In this document: positions 1 to 40,688 of the stretch, one piece after another
Numbering within the stretch: the first letter of the stretch is position 1
Layout of the letters: each line of letters starts with the position of its first letter
Source of the DNA: a virus
DNA: 40,688 bases
IMG/VR virus record: IMGVR_UViG_3300037510_000203
Reading direction: 5' to 3' (one strand)
Position numbers and translations under genes: made by a program
The notes under the pieces: model-generated
Told to the model about the DNA's origin: nothing
Seen by the model: only the letters and a program-made list of their open reading frames with translations
Databases searched by the model: none

Positions 1-127
1 TTGTAGCGACGCAGCGAGGCGCTGCAGATGTCCTTCCAGTCCTCGCTGGAGAGCTTCTGGCCGTACCAATCAACCTGCTTGGCGACCTGTCCGAGCAGAG
101 ACCAGAGCATGGCATTCTGATCGCAGC
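1..127. repeat. Terminal direct repeat, copy 1 (identical to 40562-40688)
   Basis: Read directly: ttgtagcgacgcagcgaggcgctgcagatg...catggcattctgatcgcagc occurs at both window ends. Confidence 0.97.
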
Positions 128-2911: not shown

Positions 2912-2945
2912 CATATACGCATATGAATAAACGGGCGTCAATACG
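2912..2945 (-). promoter_or_regulatory. PL-like early leftward promoter with operator
   Basis: Minus strand reads TTGACGCCCGTTTATTCATATGCGTATATG: -35 TTGACG (2936-2941), 17-18 nt spacer, -10 GTATAT/TATATG. It is 24/27 identical to the PR cassette at 3657-3683. An AT-rich stretch lies upstream (2946-2967). Confidence 0.6.
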
Positions 2946-2996
2946 TTCGTGAATAAAATTTTTCACGGTAAGTCGGTATGCGTCACTATGCGCGAC

Positions 2997-3590
2997 TCAC
3001 TTCACGGCGATCCAGGCCACCTTGGCCGCCCATTCGACGGCTTGATCCAGTAGGGGAGGGGCGTTTGTGGAATGTAGGTCGAAGTGTCTAGGCTTCCGCC
3101 CAGGATACAGTTTTTTGACAAGAATACGGCCATCATCGAGGCCGACGACACAAAGTCGATTGAAGAAACTCTCGTCGGGCGGAACCCTGCGTCTATCGTA
3201 GTAAAGCGTCCAGCCGTCTTCAAGCATTCCGGACATGCTATCGCCGCGAACGGTCACGGCAACAAGTTCGGCAACCCCTTCAACTGGTGGCATTTCCGCC
3301 TCACCGAACGGGCCCTGGCCGTCTGAAAACGCAATCGTCCCGCCAGCCCCGACGTAACCAACAATCGGAACCGTGGATTGCTCGATGTTCGACCCAGAGT
3401 TGAGAATCCCGAGCCCTCTAGCAACGTCCTCAATTGTGTTCGAATGATGAAGTTCCGGGTCGCTGCCCGACAACCAGCGAGATATAGTCGGTTGAGAGAC
3501 GCGGAAGAGGCGAGCTAGCTCGGCCTGGTTCTTCCGGGTCTTTTGCTGGACCTGCCGAACGATCCGGCTGTAATTTTTTGCGGTAGCCAT
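2997..3590 (-). CDS. cI: CI-type repressor (N-terminal XRE HTH plus C-terminal S24/LexA-like autopeptidase)
   Basis: QAELARLFRVSQPTISRWLSG HTH; VGAGG cleavage-site-like motif; GDSM serine motif and VKKL lysine motif. Start taken at MATAKNY (3590). Confidence 0.9.
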   Translation of the reverse strand: MATAKNYSRIVRQVQQKTRKNQAELARLFRVSQPTISRWLSGSDPELHHSNTIEDVARGLGILNSGSNIEQSTVPIVGYVGAGGTIAFSDGQGPFGEAEMPPVEGVAELVAVTVRGDSMSGMLEDGWTLYYDRRRVPPDESFFNRLCVVGLDDGRILVKKLYPGRKPRHFDLHSTNAPPLLDQAVEWAAKVAWIAVK

Positions 3591-3693
3591 ATCCAAATTA
3601 TGCACTGCCGCATCGCCGAATACCACGGAACATGAACGAATATCGATGCATGGGACTTGACGCCCTCGTATTCATATGCGTATTTATGCGTCC
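3591..3693. promoter_or_regulatory. Divergent PRM/PR region with operators
   Basis: Plus strand: TTGACG (3657-3662), 17-18 nt spacer, GTATTT/TATTTA, then 7 nt to the cro ATG at 3694. Minus strand: CATAAT (3597-3602), then 6 nt to the cI ATG at 3590. TATGCGT occurs at 3675 and 3685 (10-bp spacing), flanked by TTCAT...ATGAA. Confidence 0.6.
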
Positions 3694-3921
3694 ATGAATG
3701 CGATCAAACACATCAGAACCGAGATCTTCCGGATCAAGCAGGCTCCCTTTGCGGAGCTCGCCGGGGTTAGCCAGCCGACCGTCTCAAGGTGGGAGTCGGA
3801 CGAAAGAGGCTCTGAGCCAACCCGAGAAGAGATGGACAAGATACGGCAGGCTGCTGTTGCGCGCGGTCTGCCATGGAATGATGAGTGGTTCTTCCGTCTC
3901 CCATCGGAGACCGCCGCATGA
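3694..3921 (+). CDS. cro: Cro-like HTH regulator
   Basis: FAELAGVSQPTVSRWES HTH, divergent from cI. Start MNAIKH (3694) preferred because the 3676 ATG lies inside the operator/-10; 3676 is not excluded. Confidence 0.75.
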   Translation: MNAIKHIRTEIFRIKQAPFAELAGVSQPTVSRWESDERGSEPTREEMDKIRQAAVARGLPWNDEWFFRLPSETAA

Positions 3922-31122: not shown

Positions 31123-31148
31123 ATCTCGAGCCTAGCTAGATTCGAGAT
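31123..31148. terminator. Hairpin at a convergent gene junction (bidirectional terminator candidate)
   Basis: ATCTCGA (31123-31129) / TCGAGAT (31142-31148), 12-nt loop; no clear T-tract. Confidence 0.3.
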
Positions 31149-31344
31149 GCTCCCGCATCTCCATGAACATCTTCCGCACGTCGTCAAGCCGTAGCTTTCC
31201 GTTCCAGTGATCCTGGAGCAGCCGTAGCTGCAGCACGGCGATGGCATCCTGCTTGATGAGGTCAGACTCGGCGAAATAAGCCTTCATGTTCTGGATGAAG
31301 GCGCGGGCGACCTCGGGTGGCAGGTCTGGCTGCCTGGCCATCAC
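31132..31344 (-). CDS. Hypothetical 70-aa protein
   Basis: ATGA overlap with the upstream Cys-rich gene. Confidence 0.6.
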   Translation of the reverse strand: MMARQPDLPPEVARAFIQNMKAYFAESDLIKQDAIAVLQLRLLQDHWNGKLRLDDVRKMFMEMREHLESS

Positions 31345-31535
31345 AGATCGCGCTTGGCAATGGTGATGAAGCCCTCCGGCATTTCGGGGACATCGCCGTC
31401 CTCGACCTGATTACAGAGCGGGCAGGGCTTGCCGGCCGCGCCGCATGGGCAGGCACGGGGACCATCCTCCCACGGTAAATCCGGATGGGCCTCGCATACG
31501 AACCTGGCATTGTCGCAACGCAAACAGAGCTTCAT
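31341..31535 (-). CDS. Cys-rich zinc-ribbon-like small protein (64 aa)
   Basis: MKLCLRCDNARFVCEAHPDLPWEDGPRACPCGAAGKPCPLCN (7 Cys). Confidence 0.65.
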   Translation of the reverse strand: MKLCLRCDNARFVCEAHPDLPWEDGPRACPCGAAGKPCPLCNQVEDGDVPEMPEGFITIAKRDL

Positions 31536-31568
31536 GCCGACTCGATTCTTTCGAGCAGGATTGGTTCC

Positions 31569-31886
31569 TCAGCCCCAGCGTTTTGCCGCGTCGGCAGTCT
31601 TATGCCAATGCGCGATGTCGTCTGGTGTGAGGGACGCGTAAAACCGCTCCCATGCGGCTCTGAAATCCGCCTTTGCATCCTCAAAGGTCGCGGCCGCTCC
31701 GGTTGCCCACGACGGTACCGGGAGCGGAGGATTGACGAACCATTGCCACTCGTCGATATGCTCAACGTGGTTTGCCGCAAGCCTGATGCGGCCTATCGAT
31801 CGTCCGTCGCGATAGACGCAAAAGTCGTTCTCGAGGCGATCACCGCCGATCACGGTCCTTCGCAGCGTCAGATCCTGTCCTGGCAT
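31569..31886 (-). CDS. Hypothetical protein (105 aa from MPGQDL; up to 129 aa if the TTG at 31958 is used)
   Basis: ORF 31569..31958. The shorter start avoids overlapping the micro-peptide ORF 31918-32007. Confidence 0.55.
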   Translation of the reverse strand: MPGQDLTLRRTVIGGDRLENDFCVYRDGRSIGRIRLAANHVEHIDEWQWFVNPPLPVPSWATGAAATFEDAKADFRAAWERFYASLTPDDIAHWHKTADAAKRWG

Positions 31887-31917
31887 GCAGGGATGATTCC
31901 GCACACGGGCAGCCCGG

Positions 31918-32007
31918 TCAAGGATGCAGCCATGACCAGACGGCATATGCCAGCCCAATGATCGGCATCAGGAACACGCCGAGGACAAAAATACGAGGAG
32001 GAAGCAT
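31918..32007 (-). CDS. 29-aa hydrophobic micro-peptide (MLPPRIFVLGVFLMPIIGLAYAVWSWLHP)
   Basis: Hand-translated. ATG lies 3 nt after the HTH gene stop, with AGGA 7 nt upstream. Not in the ORF track. Confidence 0.35.
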   Translation of the reverse strand: MLPPRIFVLGVFLMPIIGLAYAVWSWLHP

Positions 32008-32010
32008 CGT

Positions 32011-32199
32011 CTAATCCTGGATGTCTTCGGGTCGGAGCCGATGTTTCAGCATCAGCTTGAGCAACATGGCGACGGCCTTGGGAGGCCCGTCAGCGGCGTA
32101 GCGTTGGCCTGTCCGGGGTGACAGGCCCAGCCATTCGCCGGCGCGCTCCTGGCTCAAGCCGAGCTCCTCTAGGGCCGCTTTATATTGCTTCGGGGTCAT
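32011..32199 (-). CDS. Small HTH (Cro/XRE-like) DNA-binding protein
   Basis: LGLSQERAGEWLGLSPRTGQRY helix-turn-helix pattern; first full-size gene of a leftward operon. Confidence 0.65.
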   Translation of the reverse strand: MTPKQYKAALEELGLSQERAGEWLGLSPRTGQRYAADGPPKAVAMLLKLMLKHRLRPEDIQD

Positions 32200-32274
32200 T
32201 GAACCTTAATCCGTCCGATATTATAGTCCCCGGAGTGGAAGGCGCCGCGTCCACGGCGCCCCCCGGCTTACGGT

Positions 32275-32355
32275 TTAGGTCAGGTAGAGGGCGAGGCTGA
32301 TACTCAGTTCTCGCCCTTTCCATTTCCACCGTAGAGCCAGAACGATGATGGGCAT
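32275..32355 (-). CDS. 26-codon leader ORF (MPIIVLALRWKWKGRELSISLALYLT), speculative
   Basis: Hand-translated; GGAG 8 nt upstream. Contains the 8-bp hairpin 32288-32317. Confidence 0.2.
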   Translation of the reverse strand: MPIIVLALRWKWKGRELSISLALYLT

Positions 32356-32424
32356 CGCTCTACTCCAGGGTTGGGTTCATCTTCGCCTGAACCTGTGGCG
32401 CTGTTGGCGTCAACCAACAAACGC

Positions 32425-32457
32425 AATGTACGCCATTATGGCGTATGCGTCAATACG
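32425..32457 (-). promoter_or_regulatory. Third CI-type promoter/operator (leftward)
   Basis: Minus strand reads TTGACG (32448-32453), 17 nt, TACATT (32425-32430). The spacer holds the perfect palindrome ACGCCAT-N-ATGGCGT (32430-32444). The 11-mer GCGTCAATACG is shared with PL (2935-2945), TATGCGTC with OR, and AATATCGAT upstream as at PR. Confidence 0.5.
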
Positions 32458-32601
32458 GCGTATCGATATTTTTTGAGAAATTGTTGTCAGCAGCGCAGGA
32501 CAGAAGCCTGTGCGTAACCGATCTTTTCCTCTGAACGGAGTTCCTAAAGGTTGTATCTGTTAGCCTTGATCCGTTGAGGCTGCGATTGCAGGAGGTCGGC
32601 T

Positions 32602-32985
32602 ATGAAAGTCGGAGTAAGTGGGACTTCGCTGCCCGGAGTGTTCGATAGCGGGGACTTGACGTCCTTCCAAGCTCTCGATGCGAAAGGTACAGCGTGGAAC
32701 GATGCAGCCCATCTACCAGTAAATGGCAACAGAACGGTTGCTGTCGTCAAATGGATCGATGCTGCCAATCACGCTGTTCGTATCGAACCGCAATCCATTT
32801 TCCAACTAATGCCAGCCGCCGTAGTTGAGATTTTTGCAGATGGGGGAGACATCACTGTCATGCCTCCGAGCTCGGCCAACGTTCTGCCGGGAGTCTTTTT
32901 CGGCGGGTCCGGTTCGATTGCGATCCCAGCAGGATCGGGTAGAAGGTTTATCTGTTTGATCGAGAAGTGGGCAGTCATCAGTTGA
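32602..32985 (+). CDS. Orphan 127-aa beta-rich protein, visibly lower GC
   Basis: Strong RBS GCAGGAGG 6 nt upstream; no recognisable motif. Confidence 0.6.
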   Translation: MKVGVSGTSLPGVFDSGDLTSFQALDAKGTAWNDAAHLPVNGNRTVAVVKWIDAANHAVRIEPQSIFQLMPAAVVEIFADGGDITVMPPSSANVLPGVFFGGSGSIAIPAGSGRRFICLIEKWAVIS

Positions 32986-33620: not shown

Positions 33621-33650
33621 CGTTCCTCTCGCTCATTGGCCAAGAGTGTT

Positions 33651-33737
33651 TGGCGCGAGGGCCAGGAATCGAACCTGGCGTAGCCATCCGGGAATCGAAC
33701 CCGGCAGTGGATATCTCCACCCGCACCAGCGCCTCGC
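33651..33737 (-). other. tRNA-derived block: two tandem T-arm/acceptor-like segments, the 3' one ending CCCTCGCGCCA (att-site or tRNA-remnant candidate)
   Basis: Minus strand reads CCGGGTTCGATTCCCGG (33688-33704) and CCAGGTTCGATTCCTGG (33662-33678), followed by a 7-nt acceptor strand, G, then CCA. The 5' GCGAGG can pair with the 3' CCTCGC. No D or anticodon arm is foldable. Confidence 0.5.
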
Positions 33738-35152: not shown

Positions 35153-36181
35153 TCAATTGCTGACGGGACGATTGCGAAACTGCAGGCGCTTTGCTTGCAC
35201 CTGAGCGATCTTCGCATTCGTGTTTCGGCTATATCTCTGGGTCTGGGCTATATCCGAGTGAGTGGCGGCGTGCTTCACATGCTCGATCTCGGCGCCGGCC
35301 TCGGTGGCCTCGGTGATGCCGCCGGCGCGGGAGTCCTGATTGCGAACGTCCTTCGGGATGCCAGCCTGGTCAGCCACGATCCGCCACTTTCGCCGGAATT
35401 CACTCGTGGTCCACGGCCATCCAGTGGTATCGCTGACGACCATCGCCCCGTCAGCCGGGCGATACGGATTGTGCTGAAGTTCCTCAAGGACCATCGGAGC
35501 TGATTTCAGGTCGACTTCGATCAGCTTCTGACGCTTGCTGGTGACGTGCCGTAGGATCCAGTTGTCGTCGATTTCGGACCAGCGGAGACCGCGGAGCCAC
35601 TTCATGCCGTTGAACCGGATGGAACTTTCGCCGGGCTCAGTCTCCGGCACCCACTCGCCGATCACATCCTTTTGACGAAGCAAAAGCTCGAACTGAATAG
35701 CCTGCGCGAGAGCGATCGAATGCCAGCCGAAATGGTTGCGTGCCGTTTCTCGAATCGCCACCGCATGGTCGGCCGTCAGGAAATTGACGCGAGCCTGGGT
35801 CTGGGCAAACTTCATTTTGCTCATGACCACGCTCAGGCGCTCGCACTCCCGGTCCTCGAGCATGAGCAGGCCGAAGCTGAATAGGGTCCGGAGCTGGGCA
35901 ACGAAAGCGTGCCCCATGGATAGCTTCCCGCCGGCCGACCAGCCATCGTACCATATTTGAATGGTGCTCGCTCGGATGCTGGACAGGGCTTCTTGGCCGT
36001 GCTCCTCCTCCAGCCTGCAAAGCAGACGATTGTAGTTGAGCCGGACCTGATAGCGAAGTTTGTGATAGGCTGATGCTCGGTGGGTCCGGTACTCTGTGAT
36101 CAGCCCGCCGAACGTCAGCGGCACAGTTTCGGAACAGATTGAGCCTGATGTTCCTGCATCGTTCATGATTTTTAGCCCCAT
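35153..36181 (-). CDS. Tyrosine recombinase/integrase B
   Basis: Catalytic-type residues by eye: LLLRQKD (Arg I), NQDSRAGG (Arg II; N in place of His I), HATHSD...QRYSR (His, Tyr). Confidence 0.8.
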   Translation of the reverse strand: MGLKIMNDAGTSGSICSETVPLTFGGLITEYRTHRASAYHKLRYQVRLNYNRLLCRLEEEHGQEALSSIRASTIQIWYDGWSAGGKLSMGHAFVAQLRTLFSFGLLMLEDRECERLSVVMSKMKFAQTQARVNFLTADHAVAIRETARNHFGWHSIALAQAIQFELLLRQKDVIGEWVPETEPGESSIRFNGMKWLRGLRWSEIDDNWILRHVTSKRQKLIEVDLKSAPMVLEELQHNPYRPADGAMVVSDTTGWPWTTSEFRRKWRIVADQAGIPKDVRNQDSRAGGITEATEAGAEIEHVKHAATHSDIAQTQRYSRNTNAKIAQVQAKRLQFRNRPVSN

Positions 36182-36325: not shown

Positions 36326-37315
36326 TCATACCTCGGCGGCCCTGGATTGGAAGTCCGGAGAATGCTTTCCGTAGACTTTTGTCAGGATGCTCACAGACAT
36401 TCCGAGCGCGCCGGCGGCCTCCCAGATGTCGATTCCTGCCTGCATCAGCCACGTCGCGCGCGTGTGGCGCAGCGTGTGCGGGCTGACGTCCTCAAGCTTG
36501 GCTTCCTTGCAGGCGGCCGCCCATGATCTCCGGAGCTTCTGGACGGGCTTGCCGTCGTAATGGACCACCCACGGGATCTTGCCGTCCTTGGCCTTCCAGC
36601 GCTTCATTAGGCGCACGACCGATCGGCCGAGCCGCACAGGTGGCTTGCGCTTGTTGGCGGCTTCCGTCTCGCCGGCGCTTTTTCGGTTCATGACGCCGCG
36701 GGCTAGGTCGATCTGATCCCAGCGGAGATTGAGCAGAACTCCGGATCTCGATCCGGTTTTGAGGCCAAGGATCACGAAACGGTAAAGGTGCTGGTACTTC
36801 ATCGCAGCTTGGCGCAGCCGCTTTGCCTCTGCCTGGGTCAGCCACCGTTCGCGCGGCTGCGACTTCTCAGGCAGGACAACGACCGGCGCGCGCGCCAAGG
36901 CGGCCTTATGCTTGTGCCAGTAGAGCAGGGAGGCCCGCAGCACCTCGAGGTCGCGCCTGGCCGCGGCGGCCGGCCGATCTAAAGCGTAGGCGGTGCAGTT
37001 GTCCGAGTTCACGTCGTCTGCTCTCTTCTTGCCCCAGAAGGGCGTCAGGTTCGAAATGTTGTGTGCGGCCTTGCCAGGGGTCCGCGTCTTCGGCAATCGC
37101 TCGGTGGCATAGACGAGAAGAACATCGGCGATCAGCGGCGATGCCACAGCCGCCGGCTTGTATTTTGCGGCTATGTATTCCGCGAGCTTCTTTTCAGCTC
37201 TCTCGTTTTCTGACTCAGCGCAACCAATGCGGACGAACTTTGATCCGTCTCGGATAACGATCTCTTTTCGCGCTCGATCTCGGTAGAGGCGCGGCCCTTT
37301 GGATTTTCTCGGCAT
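36326..37315 (-). CDS. int: Tyrosine integrase A
   Basis: TGSRSG (Arg I), HTLRHT (His-x-x-Arg), KVYGKHSP (Tyr). N-terminal MPRKSKGPRLY...IRDG typical of alphaproteobacterial phage integrases as recalled. Xis-like gene upstream. Confidence 0.9.
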   Translation of the reverse strand: MPRKSKGPRLYRDRARKEIVIRDGSKFVRIGCAESENERAEKKLAEYIAAKYKPAAVASPLIADVLLVYATERLPKTRTPGKAAHNISNLTPFWGKKRADDVNSDNCTAYALDRPAAAARRDLEVLRASLLYWHKHKAALARAPVVVLPEKSQPRERWLTQAEAKRLRQAAMKYQHLYRFVILGLKTGSRSGVLLNLRWDQIDLARGVMNRKSAGETEAANKRKPPVRLGRSVVRLMKRWKAKDGKIPWVVHYDGKPVQKLRRSWAAACKEAKLEDVSPHTLRHTRATWLMQAGIDIWEAAGALGMSVSILTKVYGKHSPDFQSRAAEV

Positions 37316-40408: not shown

Positions 40409-40688
40409 GCCACTTCCTCCGCAAATTCACGGAACTTCACGCCACGTTCTGTTCCAAAAGCCACAATCAGCTCAATGAGAGCTGTCATCTCGGCCTTGGT
40501 CATCTGGCTGGTGCGCATGCCGAGCGGGACGAATGTTCCCGCGTCAATGCCCGGCACCACGTTGTAGCGACGCAGCGAGGCGCTGCAGATGTCCTTCCAG
40601 TCCTCGCTGGAGAGCTTCTGGCCGTACCAATCAACCTGCTTGGCGACCTGTCCGAGCAGAGACCAGAGCATGGCATTCTGATCGCAGC
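40405..40688 (-). CDS. ninB: NinB/Orf-like recombination mediator, 3' part (the 5' end lies at 1-239 across the junction)
   Basis: LWSLLGQVAKQVDWYGQKLSSEDWKDICSASL..VVPGIDAGTFVPLGMRTSQMTKAEMTALIELIVAFGTERGVKF parallels lambda NinB (LWACLGDVSRQVEWHGRWLDAESWK...LIQAFGTERGVKW) as recalled. Confidence 0.8.
   Translation of the reverse strand, partial: CDQNAMLWSLLGQVAKQVDWYGQKLSSEDWKDICSASLRRYNVVPGIDAGTFVPLGMRTSQMTKAEMTALIELIVAFGTERGVKFREFAEEVA
40562..40688. repeat. Terminal direct repeat, copy 2 (identical to 1-127)
   Basis: Same 127 nt as the window start. Confidence 0.97.

What the first reader, a model, noticed from the sequence alone, without database searches (positions are those of the whole stretch)
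32200..32470. Third copy of the immunity-type promoter/operator about 11 kb around the circle from cI, feeding a structured 220-nt leader
The longest non-coding stretch (32200-32601) carries a leftward promoter: TTGACG (32448-32453), 17 nt, TACATT (32425-32430).

Its context copies the immunity region in three ways:
- The 11-mer GCGTCAATACG is shared exactly with PL (2935-2945).
- The 8-mer TATGCGTC is shared with OR (3685-3692).
- AATATCGAT lies 8-9 nt upstream of the -35, as at PR.

The spacer holds a perfect palindrome, ACGCCAT-N-ATGGCGT (32430-32444), and GGCGTAT recurs at 32440 and 32457.

Between the predicted start (about 32418) and the first gene (ATG 32199) lie:
- a 26-codon ORF (32355-32275) that encloses an 8-bp hairpin (AGGGCGAG/CTCGCCCT, 32288-32317);
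- a 7-bp GC hairpin (GGCGCCG/CGGCGCC, 32240-32259);
- a TATAAT box (32220-32225).

This looks like a CI/Cro-controlled satellite regulatory locus, conceptually like P22 immI, with attenuator-like leader structure. I could not match it to a described system.
Basis: partly seen in the sequence, partly recalled or inferred. Interest (0 to 1): 0.7.

Follow-up and report, generated by a model that had tools for sequence, protein, structure and literature searches.

The report
Self-repressed Aca-like phage operon promoter
The site is most likely the self-repressed promoter of a small accessory operon, controlled by the 62-residue DNA-binding protein it encodes rather than by the phage's main repressor, and it transcribes an unusually stable folded RNA where related phages carry small unknown genes.

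Summary
The interpretation needs correcting.

**Promoter and operators.** The leftward promoter (TTGACG-17-TACATT, 32453..32425) lies inside two abutting 17-bp inverted repeats, 32446-32462 and 32429-32445. The same layout occurs in dozens of viral contigs. A search using only the DNA pattern returned 52 loci, and 36 of them carry a homolog of the window's 62-aa helix-turn-helix (HTH) gene (32199-32011), usually 200-700 nt downstream.

**Who binds.** Residue 33 of the recognition helix tracks operator half-site bases 5-6: Asn with AA, Gly with CG/CA, Arg with CC. This points to the HTH protein as the binder, although binding itself was not tested. The immunity operator (ATACG-N4-TGAATA) is absent here, so CI/Cro control is not supported.

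**Closest known system.** The HTH protein most resembles Aca1, MqsA and HigA2. The layout (promoter with two inverted repeats, then variable small genes, then a conserved HTH gene) matches anti-CRISPR acr-aca operons. No anti-defence function is shown.

**Leader.** The 220-nt leader is the most stable RNA fold in the genome. Its core (32370-32228) forms a four-way junction with no unpaired junction bases (z = -8). It has no homolog and no terminator, so its function is unknown.

The parts
32463..32477 (-). A/T-rich tract (minus strand CTCAAAAAATATCGA) directly upstream of site A. It may act as an UP-like element.
   Evidence: Sequence. Relatives L066 and L086 have similar A/T-rich flanks (AAATAATCGA and AAAATAATTTAA) at the same place. 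The function is inferred.
32446..32462 (-). Operator site A, the distal and imperfect 17-mer. Minus strand TACGCCGTATTGACGCA. It contains the -35 hexamer.
   Evidence: It occupies the same position and has the same length as site A in 10 promoter copies of the TTGACG sub-family and about 35 loci of the major sub-family.
32429..32445 (-). Operator site B, the proximal 17-bp perfect palindrome TACGCCAT(A/T)ATGGCGTA. It fills the promoter spacer, and its last TA forms the first two bases of the -10.
   Evidence: unique in the window; 0.08 expected by chance. The family layout is shown.
32448..32453 (-). -35 hexamer TTGACG
   Evidence: 9 of 12 consensus positions matched, 17-nt spacer.
32425..32430 (-). 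-10 hexamer TACATT
   Evidence: Relatives have TATATA, TATATT, TATGTT or TATAGT at the same offset from site B.
32402..32419 (-). First leader hairpin, UGUUGG-UUGACG-CCAACA, at the predicted transcription start (about 32418). It contains ACGCCA, which resembles an operator half-site.
   Evidence: Fold. The first ~15 nt resemble the 5'UTR start of relative L047. The start site is inferred from the -10 position.
32374..32393 (-). Second leader hairpin, GGUUCA-GGCGAAGA-UGAACC
32228..32370 (-). Core of the leader, a four-way junction RNA with no unpaired junction nucleotides. P1 is 32370-32362 paired with 32236-32228 (9 bp). P2 is 32361-32353 paired with 32347-32339 (9 bp).
   Evidence: -84.5 kcal/mol, z = -8.0, and the MFE structure makes up 8.8% of the ensemble. 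Five G.U pairs favour the minus strand; the plus strand gives -76.8 kcal/mol and z = -5.5. No homolog was found.
32275..32355 (-). 26-codon ORF (MPIIVLALRWKWKGRELSISLALYLT). A GGAG lies 7 nt upstream of its AUG. Both the GGAG and the AUG are paired in P1/P2. Probably not expressed, or a remnant.
   Evidence: There is no comparative support. The overlapping 49-aa ORF has no homolog.
32011..32199 (-). Gene for a 62-aa helix-turn-helix protein, the proposed repressor of sites A and B. It is Aca1/MqsA/HigA2-like. The recognition helix spans residues 28-37 and the specificity residue is Arg33.
   Evidence: Xre-like HTH, MqsA family, all below curated cut-offs. (AF2 model, pLDDT 91.9). (closest structures and sequences). 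(covariation with the operator). (589 clusters at 50% identity).
31132..31958 (-). Co-directional downstream genes, probably in the same operon: 129 aa (31958-31569), 64 aa Cys-rich (31535-31341) and 70 aa (31344-31132).
   Evidence: The 129-aa protein hits phrog_12188 (unknown function) and has a 48%-identical homolog downstream of the HTH gene in L036 and L037. There are no Pfam, PADLOC or NCBIfam hits.

Best explanation
Positions 32425-32462 are the promoter-operator cassette of an autonomous, self-repressed operon.

Two abutting 17-bp inverted repeats cover the promoter. Site A contains the -35. Site B fills the spacer and overlaps the first two bases of the -10. They are the cognate operators of the 62-aa HTH protein encoded 220 nt downstream. 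That protein is a distant relative of the anti-CRISPR-associated regulator Aca1.

Proposed mechanism: RNA polymerase fires leftward from about 32418. As the HTH protein accumulates, its dimers occupy site B, with or without site A, and occlude the promoter. Expression therefore comes as a burst followed by shut-off. CI and Cro play no part.

The cassette is modular. In relatives, the same promoter and 5'UTR are fused to one or two small, mutually unrelated genes of unknown function that lie ahead of the HTH gene. This is the acr-aca (anti-defence operon) layout. In this phage that slot holds no credible gene. It holds a 148-nt four-way-junction RNA inside a 220-nt leader. That RNA is most likely either a cis-acting 5'UTR element affecting stability or translation of the operon mRNA, or a non-coding cargo.

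Shown: the sequence layout, family-wide conservation, co-occurrence with the HTH gene, protein-operator covariation, the protein fold, and the exceptional RNA stability.

Inferred: binding, repression, the start site, any anti-defence role, and any RNA function.
For: 1. Layout conserved in relatives. Six loci found through the protein alone (L002, L003, L006, L034, L035, L036) carry TACG-N8-GCGTA 17-mers only in the gap upstream of the small operon that holds the HTH homolog. Five carry two abutting sites and L035 one. That is 11 sites, plus one one-mismatch hit elsewhere (L035 4942), against about 0.3 expected by chance in about 38 kb (my estimate).

2. Reverse test. A DNA-only scan of viral contigs for the double site returned 52 loci. 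Of these, 36 encode a homolog of the 62-aa protein. In all 29 G- and N-class loci of that scan it lies 203-690 nt downstream on the promoter strand.

3. The window matches the 'TTGACG' sub-family position for position. The pattern is TACGCC-nnn-TTGACGnA | TACGCC-nnnnn-GGCGTA | TA...

4. Covariation.
- Residue 33 is Asn: site A left half is TACGAA in 13 of 13.
- Residue 33 is Gly: TACGCG or TACGCA in 20 of 22.
- Residue 33 is Arg: TACGCC in 9 of 10, including the window.
- The window protein is 61-69% identical to Asn-class proteins but only 42-50% identical to the other Arg-class proteins. It nonetheless has Arg33 and CC operators, so the link is not only shared descent.
- Bradyrhizobium phage ppBeUSDA76-2 has the helix RTARRW and operators TAGGGC..GCCCTA on the same scaffold.

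5. Protein fold. Residue 33 sits in the predicted recognition helix (H3, residues 28-37; AF2 pLDDT 91.9). The best structural matches are MqsA C-terminal domain, HigA2, Aca1 and Aca2 (TM 0.67-0.74, probability 0.98-1.0). The top PDB sequence hit of the family profile is Aca1 (E = 0.026). The Aca1 operator IR2, TAGGCAC-AAT-GTGCCTA, is also a 17-bp palindrome with TA at both ends, and Aca1 Arg47, which contacts a G, aligns with family position 32 (PMC8633003).

6. Variable cargo. The 40 upstream proteins are unrelated to one another (mean column identity 9%). Only two have a Pfam hit. They match 13 different PHROGs, one member each, all of unknown function.

7. Multiple cassette copies per element occur in L038, L041 and L057. 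This parallels published Aca regulation of neighbouring operons (PMC13551039).

8. The immunity operator motif is absent from P3.
Against: - No binding, transcript or expression data exist for this phage or any relative.
- Homology to Aca1 is marginal by sequence (E = 0.026), and Foldseek E-values are 0.08-0.3.
- No known acr or anti-defence gene is in the operon. In the window nothing protein-coding precedes the HTH gene.
- In L066 the HTH gene lies just upstream of the cassette rather than downstream. The closest protein relative (P0002, 79% identity; loci L004 and L005) has no such sites in the short contigs available.
- Covariation classes are partly clades, so the counts overstate the number of independent events.
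- The leader is a singleton, so its structure has no comparative support.
- PL does share CGTATTGACGC with P3, so a common origin of the -35 regions is not excluded.
Confidence: 0.7

Rival explanations
1. P3 is a satellite promoter carrying immunity-type operators. The phage CI repressor and/or Cro repress it, so the operon is coupled to the lysis-lysogeny switch.
For: - The 11-mer CGTATTGACGC is shared exactly with PL.
- TATGCGT occurs 6 times in the genome, and 5 of these lie in the three regulatory regions.
- AATATCGAT lies upstream of the -35 at both PR and P3.
- PL, PR and P3 all use TTGACGC as the -35.
Against: - The repeated immunity operator ATACG-N4-TGAATA (three exact and three degenerate copies at OL and OR) has no match in 32200-32600 with up to 2 mismatches.
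- Similarity to PL stops at the 11-mer, and that 11-mer is only marginally beyond chance.
- The P3 palindromes are explained fully by a different cassette family that co-varies with the downstream HTH protein.
- The 62-aa protein is unrelated in sequence to CI or Cro.
Confidence: 0.07
2. The locus is a type II toxin-antitoxin-like module. The HTH protein would be an MqsA/HigA2-type antitoxin that autoregulates through palindromes, and a neighbouring gene would be the toxin.
For: - The best structural matches include MqsA and HigA2 C-terminal domains.
- There are weak hits to PF20432 (Xre-like antitoxin HTH) and TIGR03830 (MqsA family).
- In mqsRA and higBA the toxin gene precedes the antitoxin gene, as the variable genes do in the relatives.
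Against: - The genes upstream of the HTH in relatives are mutually unrelated. None hits a toxin family, and only 2 of 40 have any Pfam hit.
- The window has no upstream gene at all.
- The downstream genes have no Pfam or PADLOC hit.
- The HTH protein lacks the MqsA zinc-binding N-terminal domain, and all family hits fall below the curated cut-offs.
Confidence: 0.07
3. The 220-nt 'leader' has no function of its own. It would be the decayed remnant of a former cargo gene or an inserted palindromic element, and the operon works like its relatives apart from an inert spacer.
For: - Relatives have a gene in this slot and 5'UTRs of only about 25-40 nt.
- The first ~15 nt of the leader resemble the 5'UTR start of relative L047, and a GGAG-7nt-AUG resembling the relatives' translation start survives at 32366-32353.
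- L047 also has a gap of about 215 nt, and that gap is not structured (z = -0.5).
- The window leader has no homolog anywhere.
Against: - Decay does not produce the most stable fold in the genome.
- The core is a four-way junction with zero unpaired junction nucleotides, z = -8.0, and a dominant MFE structure.
- G.U pairs make the transcribed strand 7.7 kcal/mol more stable than its complement.
- No frame of the leader matches any protein.
Confidence: 0.2
4. The leader is a transcription attenuator or riboswitch that gates read-through into the HTH gene.
For: It is a long, highly structured 5' leader with a small ORF.
Against: - No hairpin inside the leader is followed by a U-run on the minus strand. 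P4 is followed by UUCCACUCC, and the scan's only minus-strand hit in this stretch is operator site B (32445-32429), upstream of the predicted start.
- No Rfam family matches at E up to 10.
- The single dominant fold leaves no obvious alternative pairing.
- The small ORF's Shine-Dalgarno sequence and AUG are both buried in helices.
Confidence: 0.05

Closest known systems
acrIF1-aca1 operon promoter of Pseudomonas phage JBD30 (Aca1 with inverted repeats IR1 and IR2)
   Same: - A small (62-79 aa) HTH protein with a recognition helix alpha3.
- Two inverted repeats in the promoter of its own operon.
- A 17-bp operator with TA at both ends in a 7+3+7 arrangement: TAGGCAC-AAT-GTGCCTA compared with TACGCCA-TAA-TGGCGTA.
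- Variable small genes between the promoter and the conserved HTH gene.
- Aca1 is the best PDB sequence hit of the family profile and among the best structural hits.
   Different: - Sequence relationship is marginal (E = 0.026; about 30% identity over 55 residues).
- Half-sites differ.
- The hosts are probably Alphaproteobacteria (Bradyrhizobium-type), which are not among the Aca1 clusters described in PMC13551039.
- No validated acr gene is present.
- In this window the acr slot holds a structured RNA and the other genes lie downstream of the HTH gene.
Aca2 (phage ZF40) and Aca1 5'UTR RNA motifs, giving dual DNA and RNA binding
   Same: - A hairpin-forming inverted repeat lies directly downstream of the predicted start site. 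In the window it is 32419-32402 and contains ACGCCA, which resembles an operator half-site.
- The published motif is an inverted repeat of about 20 nt just after the start site (PMC13551039).
   Different: - The published motifs are single short hairpins ending about 20 nt before the start codon.
- Here the leader is 220 nt with a 148-nt four-way junction.
- RNA binding is untested, and the hairpin is not demonstrably conserved among relatives.
Phage P22 immI (Mnt, Arc, ant, sar)
   Same: A second regulatory locus far from the main immunity region, with its own small repressor whose operators overlap the promoter. A promoter-like site on the opposite strand (32199-32227) could in principle give an antisense RNA.
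   Different: - The repressor is an HTH protein, not ribbon-helix-helix.
- No antirepressor domain was detected.
- There is no evidence of any link to CI.
- The antisense transcript is only a consensus match.
The OL/OR immunity operators of this same phage
   Same: Both use TTGACGC as the -35, both place the operator in the spacer and -10 region, and both have an ATACG/TACG element.
   Different: The immunity operators are ATACG-N4-TGAATA and non-palindromic. P3 has 17-bp TACGCC..GGCGTA palindromes and no TGAATA half.
MqsA and HigA2 antitoxins, and restriction-modification controller (C) proteins with C-boxes
   Same: The same HTH fold class and autoregulation through paired palindromic operators upstream of their own gene.
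   Different: No toxin or restriction enzyme partner is detectable. The genes upstream of the HTH vary between relatives, whereas a toxin or restriction-enzyme partner would be expected to be conserved. MqsA's zinc domain is absent.

Membership tests
Aca-type autoregulator / acr-aca operon | A small HTH protein that reads DNA through a recognition helix | tested here: met
   The AF2 model has four helices, with the HTH formed by H2 (17-24) and H3 (28-37), and pLDDT 91.9. Foldseek gives Aca1 and Aca2 at TM 0.66-0.74.
Aca-type autoregulator / acr-aca operon | Sequence homology to a named Aca family (Aca1) | tested here: inconclusive
   Aca1 is the top PDB hit of the family profile, but only at E = 0.026 and 17.8 bits. 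Identity is 30-32% over 53-56 aligned residues.
Aca-type autoregulator / acr-aca operon | Inverted-repeat operator(s) overlapping the promoter of the operon that encodes the regulator | tested here: met
   Sites A and B cover the -35, the spacer and the start of the -10. The layout is conserved in about 45 related loci.
Aca-type autoregulator / acr-aca operon | The regulator binds those repeats and represses transcription | not testable with these tools
   Support is indirect only: co-occurrence in 36 of 52 loci found by DNA pattern alone, and covariation between residue 33 and the half-site.
Aca-type autoregulator / acr-aca operon | A validated anti-CRISPR or anti-defence gene in the same operon | tested here: not met
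   - The window has no protein gene between the promoter and the HTH gene.
- The operon proteins have no Pfam, PADLOC or NCBIfam hit.
- Two of the 40 cargo proteins in relatives have a Pfam hit, neither an anti-defence family, and their PHROG matches are all of unknown function.
- An Acb5 gene lies about 0.6 kb upstream of the cassette gap in the contig that carries P0004.
- No dedicated Acr library was available.
Aca-type autoregulator / acr-aca operon | Variable, unrelated small genes directly upstream of the conserved regulator gene | tested here: met
   This holds for relatives. In the window the slot is non-coding.
CI/Cro-controlled (immunity-type) promoter | Carries the operator motif repeated at OL and OR of the same phage | tested here: not met
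   ATACG-N4-TGAATA gives 6 of its 10 matches (up to 2 mismatches) in the immunity region and none in 32200-32600.
CI/Cro-controlled (immunity-type) promoter | Extended sequence similarity to PL or PR | tested here: not met
   Only an 11-mer is shared, and no ungapped match of at least 17 of 24 positions to PL or PR exists.
P22 immI-type second immunity region | An antirepressor gene under the control of the local repressor(s) | tested here: not met
   None of the operon proteins has an Ant, KilAC or Bro-type hit.
Type II toxin-antitoxin module (MqsA/HigA2 type) | An adjacent gene from a toxin family | tested here: not met
   No toxin family hit appears in the window operon or in the 40 cargo proteins of relatives.
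Transcription attenuator / riboswitch leader | An intrinsic terminator within the leader and/or a match to a curated RNA family | tested here: not met
   No leader hairpin is followed by a U-tract on the minus strand; the scan's only minus-strand site in this stretch is operator site B, upstream of the predicted start. Rfam returns nothing relevant at E up to 10.

The most novel reading that the evidence does not exclude
The 148-nt four-way-junction RNA (32370-32228) may be a functional non-coding cargo of an Aca-type operon. It sits exactly where relatives place small genes of unknown function, possibly anti-defence, and it would be produced in a burst from the same self-limiting promoter.

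It could be an RNA-based anti-defence or host-takeover factor, by analogy with RNA anti-CRISPRs that colocalise with acr genes (PMC10651486). Alternatively it could be a large RNA target of the HTH protein that extends the known Aca-5'UTR interaction.
Probability: 0.15. Interest if true: 0.8.

Novelty: new variant of a known kind. Interest (0 to 1): 0.55.

Why it matters
**A large, apparently undescribed regulator-operator family.** Self-repressed HTH operons of the acr-aca type are well described in phages of Pseudomonas, Pectobacterium and some other hosts. This work adds a family probably from Alphaproteobacteria-type phages, with 589 protein clusters at 50% identity. I found no description of it in the papers I read.

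**A readable recognition code.** Recognition-helix residue 33 tracks operator bases 5-6: Asn with AA, Arg with CC, Gly with CG or CA. This can be tested directly by swap experiments and used to predict regulons.

**A source of candidate genes.** The diverse small genes behind the cassette are candidates for new anti-defence or host-takeover functions, found by guilt by association.

**An unusual instance.** In this phage the cargo slot holds an exceptionally stable four-way-junction RNA. If functional, it would be a new kind of non-coding element in such operons.

**A methodological caution.** Short k-mer sharing with PL and PR suggested immunity control, and comparative data overturned that reading.

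Tried and rejected
**Searches for relatives of this phage**
- Known phages: megablast and blastn against INPHARED gave no match. Only a weak protein hit to Bradyrhizobium phage ppBeUSDA76-2 appeared.
- Close relatives by protein: the 62-aa and 129-aa proteins gave none in viral contigs. The exact 62-aa protein occurs only on this phage's own contigs. The 127-aa neighbour is an ORFan.

**Pattern scans that returned only chance or known hits**
- The genome-contig scan with TTGACGC-N3-CGCCAT-N-ATGGCG gave 26 hits, all chance matches inside coding sequence.
- The metagenome scan with the window-type double site recovered only the L038 and L041 lineages.

**Searches for a leader homolog**
- blastn-short against all fetched loci found only 11-16-nt matches at chance level (E >= 0.13).
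- The 20-mer of the P4 hairpin hit two viral contigs, both coding coincidences.
- Rfam at gathering and E-value thresholds found nothing.
- tRNA/tmRNA search found nothing.

**Leader as a decayed gene**
- tblastn of the relatives' first genes against the window gave nothing.
- The 49-aa leader ORF has no homolog.

**Comparisons with relatives that have long upstream gaps**
- The upstream gap of the closest relative (L004) is neither similar nor structured.
- L047 has a leader of about 215 nt, but it is not structured (z = -0.5) and not alignable beyond about 15 nt.

**Other ideas considered and dropped**
- attP, ori or cos at this site: rejected. The tRNA-like att core lies at about 33.65-33.71 kb, the terminase genes lie at about 9-11 kb (by ORF size and position, not scanned against any library), and the fold is strand-biased towards the RNA sense strand.
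- Type I toxin reading of the 26-aa ORF: rejected, because it has no continuous hydrophobic span.
Full report
**Context**

The window is a circular temperate phage genome with an exact 127-nt terminal repeat. It has no close relative among deposited phages.

cI (2997-3626, minus strand; S24 peptidase plus HTH) and cro (3676/3694-3921, plus strand) flank a lambda-like immunity region. The finding lies in the longest non-coding gap, 32200-32601. This gap separates a leftward 62-aa HTH gene (32199-32011) from a rightward 127-aa ORFan (32602-32985). It lies in the accessory region between the lysis genes and a tRNA-like att core at about 33.65-33.71 kb.

**Checking the observation**

It is unique in the genome, with 0.08 copies expected by chance. 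A second, imperfect 17-mer abuts it at 32446-32462. TTGACG-17-TACATT is one of only eight consensus-like promoters in the genome.

The leader is exceptionally structured:
- Folded as RNA, the minus strand of 32190-32418 gives -103.6 kcal/mol with z = -6.3.
- Among 4,046 windows of 229 nt on both strands, the leader ranks first after GC correction (z = -4.8; the next independent locus scores -3.0).

The claimed kinship with the immunity region is weak. The 11-mer is only marginally beyond chance, and no similarity extends past it.

**What the operators belong to**

Homologs of the 62-aa protein (60-79% identity) were traced to their contigs. In every phage-like contig with enough upstream sequence (L002, L003, L006, L034, L035, L036), 17-mers of the form TACG-N8-GCGTA occur in the intergenic gap ahead of a short operon that contains the homolog. 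Five loci carry two abutting sites and L035 one. Only one one-mismatch hit lies anywhere else in these loci.

The layout is the same as in the window:
- The -35 lies inside site A.
- Site B fills the spacer.
- The -10 begins with the last TA of site B.

I then reversed the test. A scan of viral contigs for the double site alone returned 52 loci. Of these, 36 encode a homolog of the 62-aa protein. In all 29 G- and N-class loci of that scan it lies 203-690 nt downstream on the promoter strand.

Two sub-families are visible:
- The major one reads cTGTAACAwTwCGTGAT | TACGCGGGACTTGCGTA | TACGCAGAATTAGCGTA | TGTTG...
- A 'TTGACG' sub-family reads TACGCC-nnn-TTGACGTA | TACGCC-nnnnn-GGCGTA | TAtat. 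The window matches this one position for position.

**Who binds**

The AF2 model of the protein (pLDDT 91.9) has four helices. The HTH is H2 (17-24) plus H3 (28-37).

Residue 33, in the recognition helix, tracks positions 5-6 of the operator half-site:

| Residue 33 | Site A left half | Count |
|---|---|---|
| Asn | TACGAA | 13 of 13 |
| Gly | TACGCG or TACGCA | 20 of 22 |
| Arg | TACGCC | 9 of 10, including the window |
| Ser | TACGCG | 1 of 1 |

The window protein is 61-69% identical to Asn-class proteins and only 42-50% identical to the other Arg-class proteins. It still carries Arg33 together with CC operators. The association is therefore not simply inherited as a block.

Bradyrhizobium phage ppBeUSDA76-2 keeps the scaffold (TTGTAACATTTCGTGAT, then two 17-mers). 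Its helix reads RTARRW and its operators read TAGGGC..GCCCTA.

These patterns fit the familiar Asn-adenine and Arg-guanine contacts. That reading is my inference from general knowledge of protein-DNA recognition. Binding itself remains untested.

**Not CI/Cro**

The motif repeated in the immunity region is ATACG-N4-TGAATA. It is exact at 2915, 2941 and 3669(rc), and PL and PR form a 27-bp inverted duplicate. With up to two mismatches it occurs six times in the immunity region and never in 32200-32600.

The shared 11-mer is the -35 plus flank. In PL its ATACG opens OL2. In P3 the same letters lie inside site A. The 62-aa protein shows no sequence similarity to CI or Cro.

**Comparison with known systems**

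Foldseek places the model nearest the MqsA C-terminal domain, HigA2, Aca1 (phage JBD30), Aca2 (phage ZF40) and restriction-modification controller proteins. The best PDB sequence hit of the family profile is Aca1, though only at E = 0.026.

Aca1 represses the acrIF1-aca1 promoter through two inverted repeats. Its IR2, TAGGCAC-AAT-GTGCCTA, is also a 17-bp palindrome with TA at both ends. Its Arg47 contacts a guanine and aligns with family position 32 (PMC8633003; alignment).

The genes between the cassette and the HTH gene in relatives are small and mutually unrelated (mean column identity 9%). Two of 40 have a Pfam hit, neither to an anti-defence family. They match 13 different PHROGs of unknown function, one member each. 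This is the signature used to find acr genes next to aca genes.

Some elements carry two or three cassette copies (L038, L041, L057). This matches the published prediction that Aca proteins also regulate neighbouring operons (PMC13551039).

No anti-defence function has been shown for any gene here. The paper does not mention alphaproteobacterial hosts. The family is large, with 589 clusters at 50% identity.

**The leader**

Relatives have 5'UTRs of about 25-40 nt. In the major sub-family a conserved ...CATCAACAACGGAGCAAGCAAATGACC joins the cassette to whichever gene comes first.

The window instead has 220 nt without a credible gene. The first ~15 nt resemble the 5'UTR start of relative L047, and they form a hairpin at the predicted start (32419-32402).

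The core, 32370-32228, folds into a four-way junction with no unpaired junction nucleotides. P1 has 9 bp, P2 9 bp, P3 27 bp (interrupted) and P4 12 bp. The fold has -84.5 kcal/mol and z = -8.0, and the MFE structure makes up 8.8% of the ensemble.

Five G.U pairs make the transcribed strand 7.7 kcal/mol more stable than its complement. This favours an RNA-level structure read from P3.

None of the leader hairpins is followed by a U-tract. The scan's only minus-strand terminator-like site in this stretch is operator site B itself, upstream of the predicted start. No Rfam family matches. No homolog of the leader was found in any collection.

A second relative with a long gap, L047, is neither structured nor alignable. 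The leader's structure is therefore real but a singleton, and its function is open.

**Verdict**

Its central claim, a third immunity-type operator under CI/Cro control, is wrong.

The best-supported model is an Aca1-like, self-repressed accessory operon. It is a new alphaproteobacterial-type variant of a known kind.

Two features add value:
- a clean residue-to-base covariation that can be tested by swap experiments;
- a four-way-junction RNA occupying the slot where relatives carry variable small genes.

Noticed in passing
window 33640-33715 (minus strand): Two tandem pieces that look like tRNA 3' ends (GGGTTCGATTCCCGGATGGCTACGCCA, then GGTTCGATTCCTGGCCCTCGCGCCA) lie in the gap between the HNH gene and the 33757-33981 gene. 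This is probably the attP core, possibly for two different tRNA targets. ARAGORN finds no complete tRNA.
   Followed up: partly
window 35153-36181 (-) and 36326-37315 (-): Two adjacent tyrosine-recombinase genes. The second is 39% identical to the integrases next to the HTH operons in L002 and L003. Together with the double tRNA-like core, this suggests dual integration specificity or a captured second integrase.
   Followed up: no
window 2915-2957 and 3657-3700: The immunity operators are non-palindromic ATACG-N4-TGAATA 15-mers (OL1 at 2915, OL2 at 2941, OR1 at 3669 on the reverse strand). PL and PR are a 27-bp inverted duplicate. TATGCGT recurs at 10-bp spacing at 2977/2987 and 3675/3685. 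cI may be leaderless, since CATAAT lies 7 nt before an in-frame ATG at about 3591 (read from the sequence).
   Followed up: partly
window 32199-32227 (+): A promoter-like site, TTGAAC-17-TATAGT, points rightward. It overlaps the HTH start codon and is antisense to the leader. On the plus strand the 32288-32317 stem is followed by UUUCCAUUUCC, and the operator region (32445-32463) by a T-run. An antisense RNA is possible but has no other support.
   Followed up: no
loci L002-L089 (relatives): In the major sub-family the promoter, the 5'UTR and the first codons (…CATCAACAACGGAGCAAGCAAATGACC…) are conserved in front of unrelated cargo genes, many of which start with Met-Thr. This suggests a recombination-ready expression cassette.
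   Followed up: partly
L038 (10,997-nt viral contig): A small element with three copies of the window-type cassette all firing the same way, a capsid-protease fusion gene and a Zeta-toxin gene. It may be a satellite-like element regulated globally by its HTH protein.
   Followed up: no
contig carrying P0004 and L042 7410-8480: An Acb5 (PF26761) gene lies about 0.6 kb upstream of the cassette gap (about 0.8 kb upstream of the HTH gene) in one relative. An Acyl_transf_3 gene (O-antigen acyltransferase type) lies downstream of the HTH operon in another. Both fit an anti-defence or lysogenic-conversion neighbourhood.
   Followed up: no
protein P0016: A 1,399-aa protein with 11 separate stretches matching the 62-aa HTH is the top hit in the representative library. 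It could be a tandem-repeat HTH protein or a gene-calling or assembly artefact.
   Followed up: no
window 32602-32985 (+): The divergent 127-aa gene has a strong Shine-Dalgarno sequence (AGGAGG) but no homolog in 5.8 billion proteins and no recognisable promoter. Sites A and B lie about 140 nt upstream of it, so bidirectional control cannot be excluded.
   Followed up: partly
window 1-127 and 40562-40688: An exact 127-nt terminal direct repeat, which is an artefact of assembling a circular genome. The unique genome length is 40,561 bp.
   Followed up: yes
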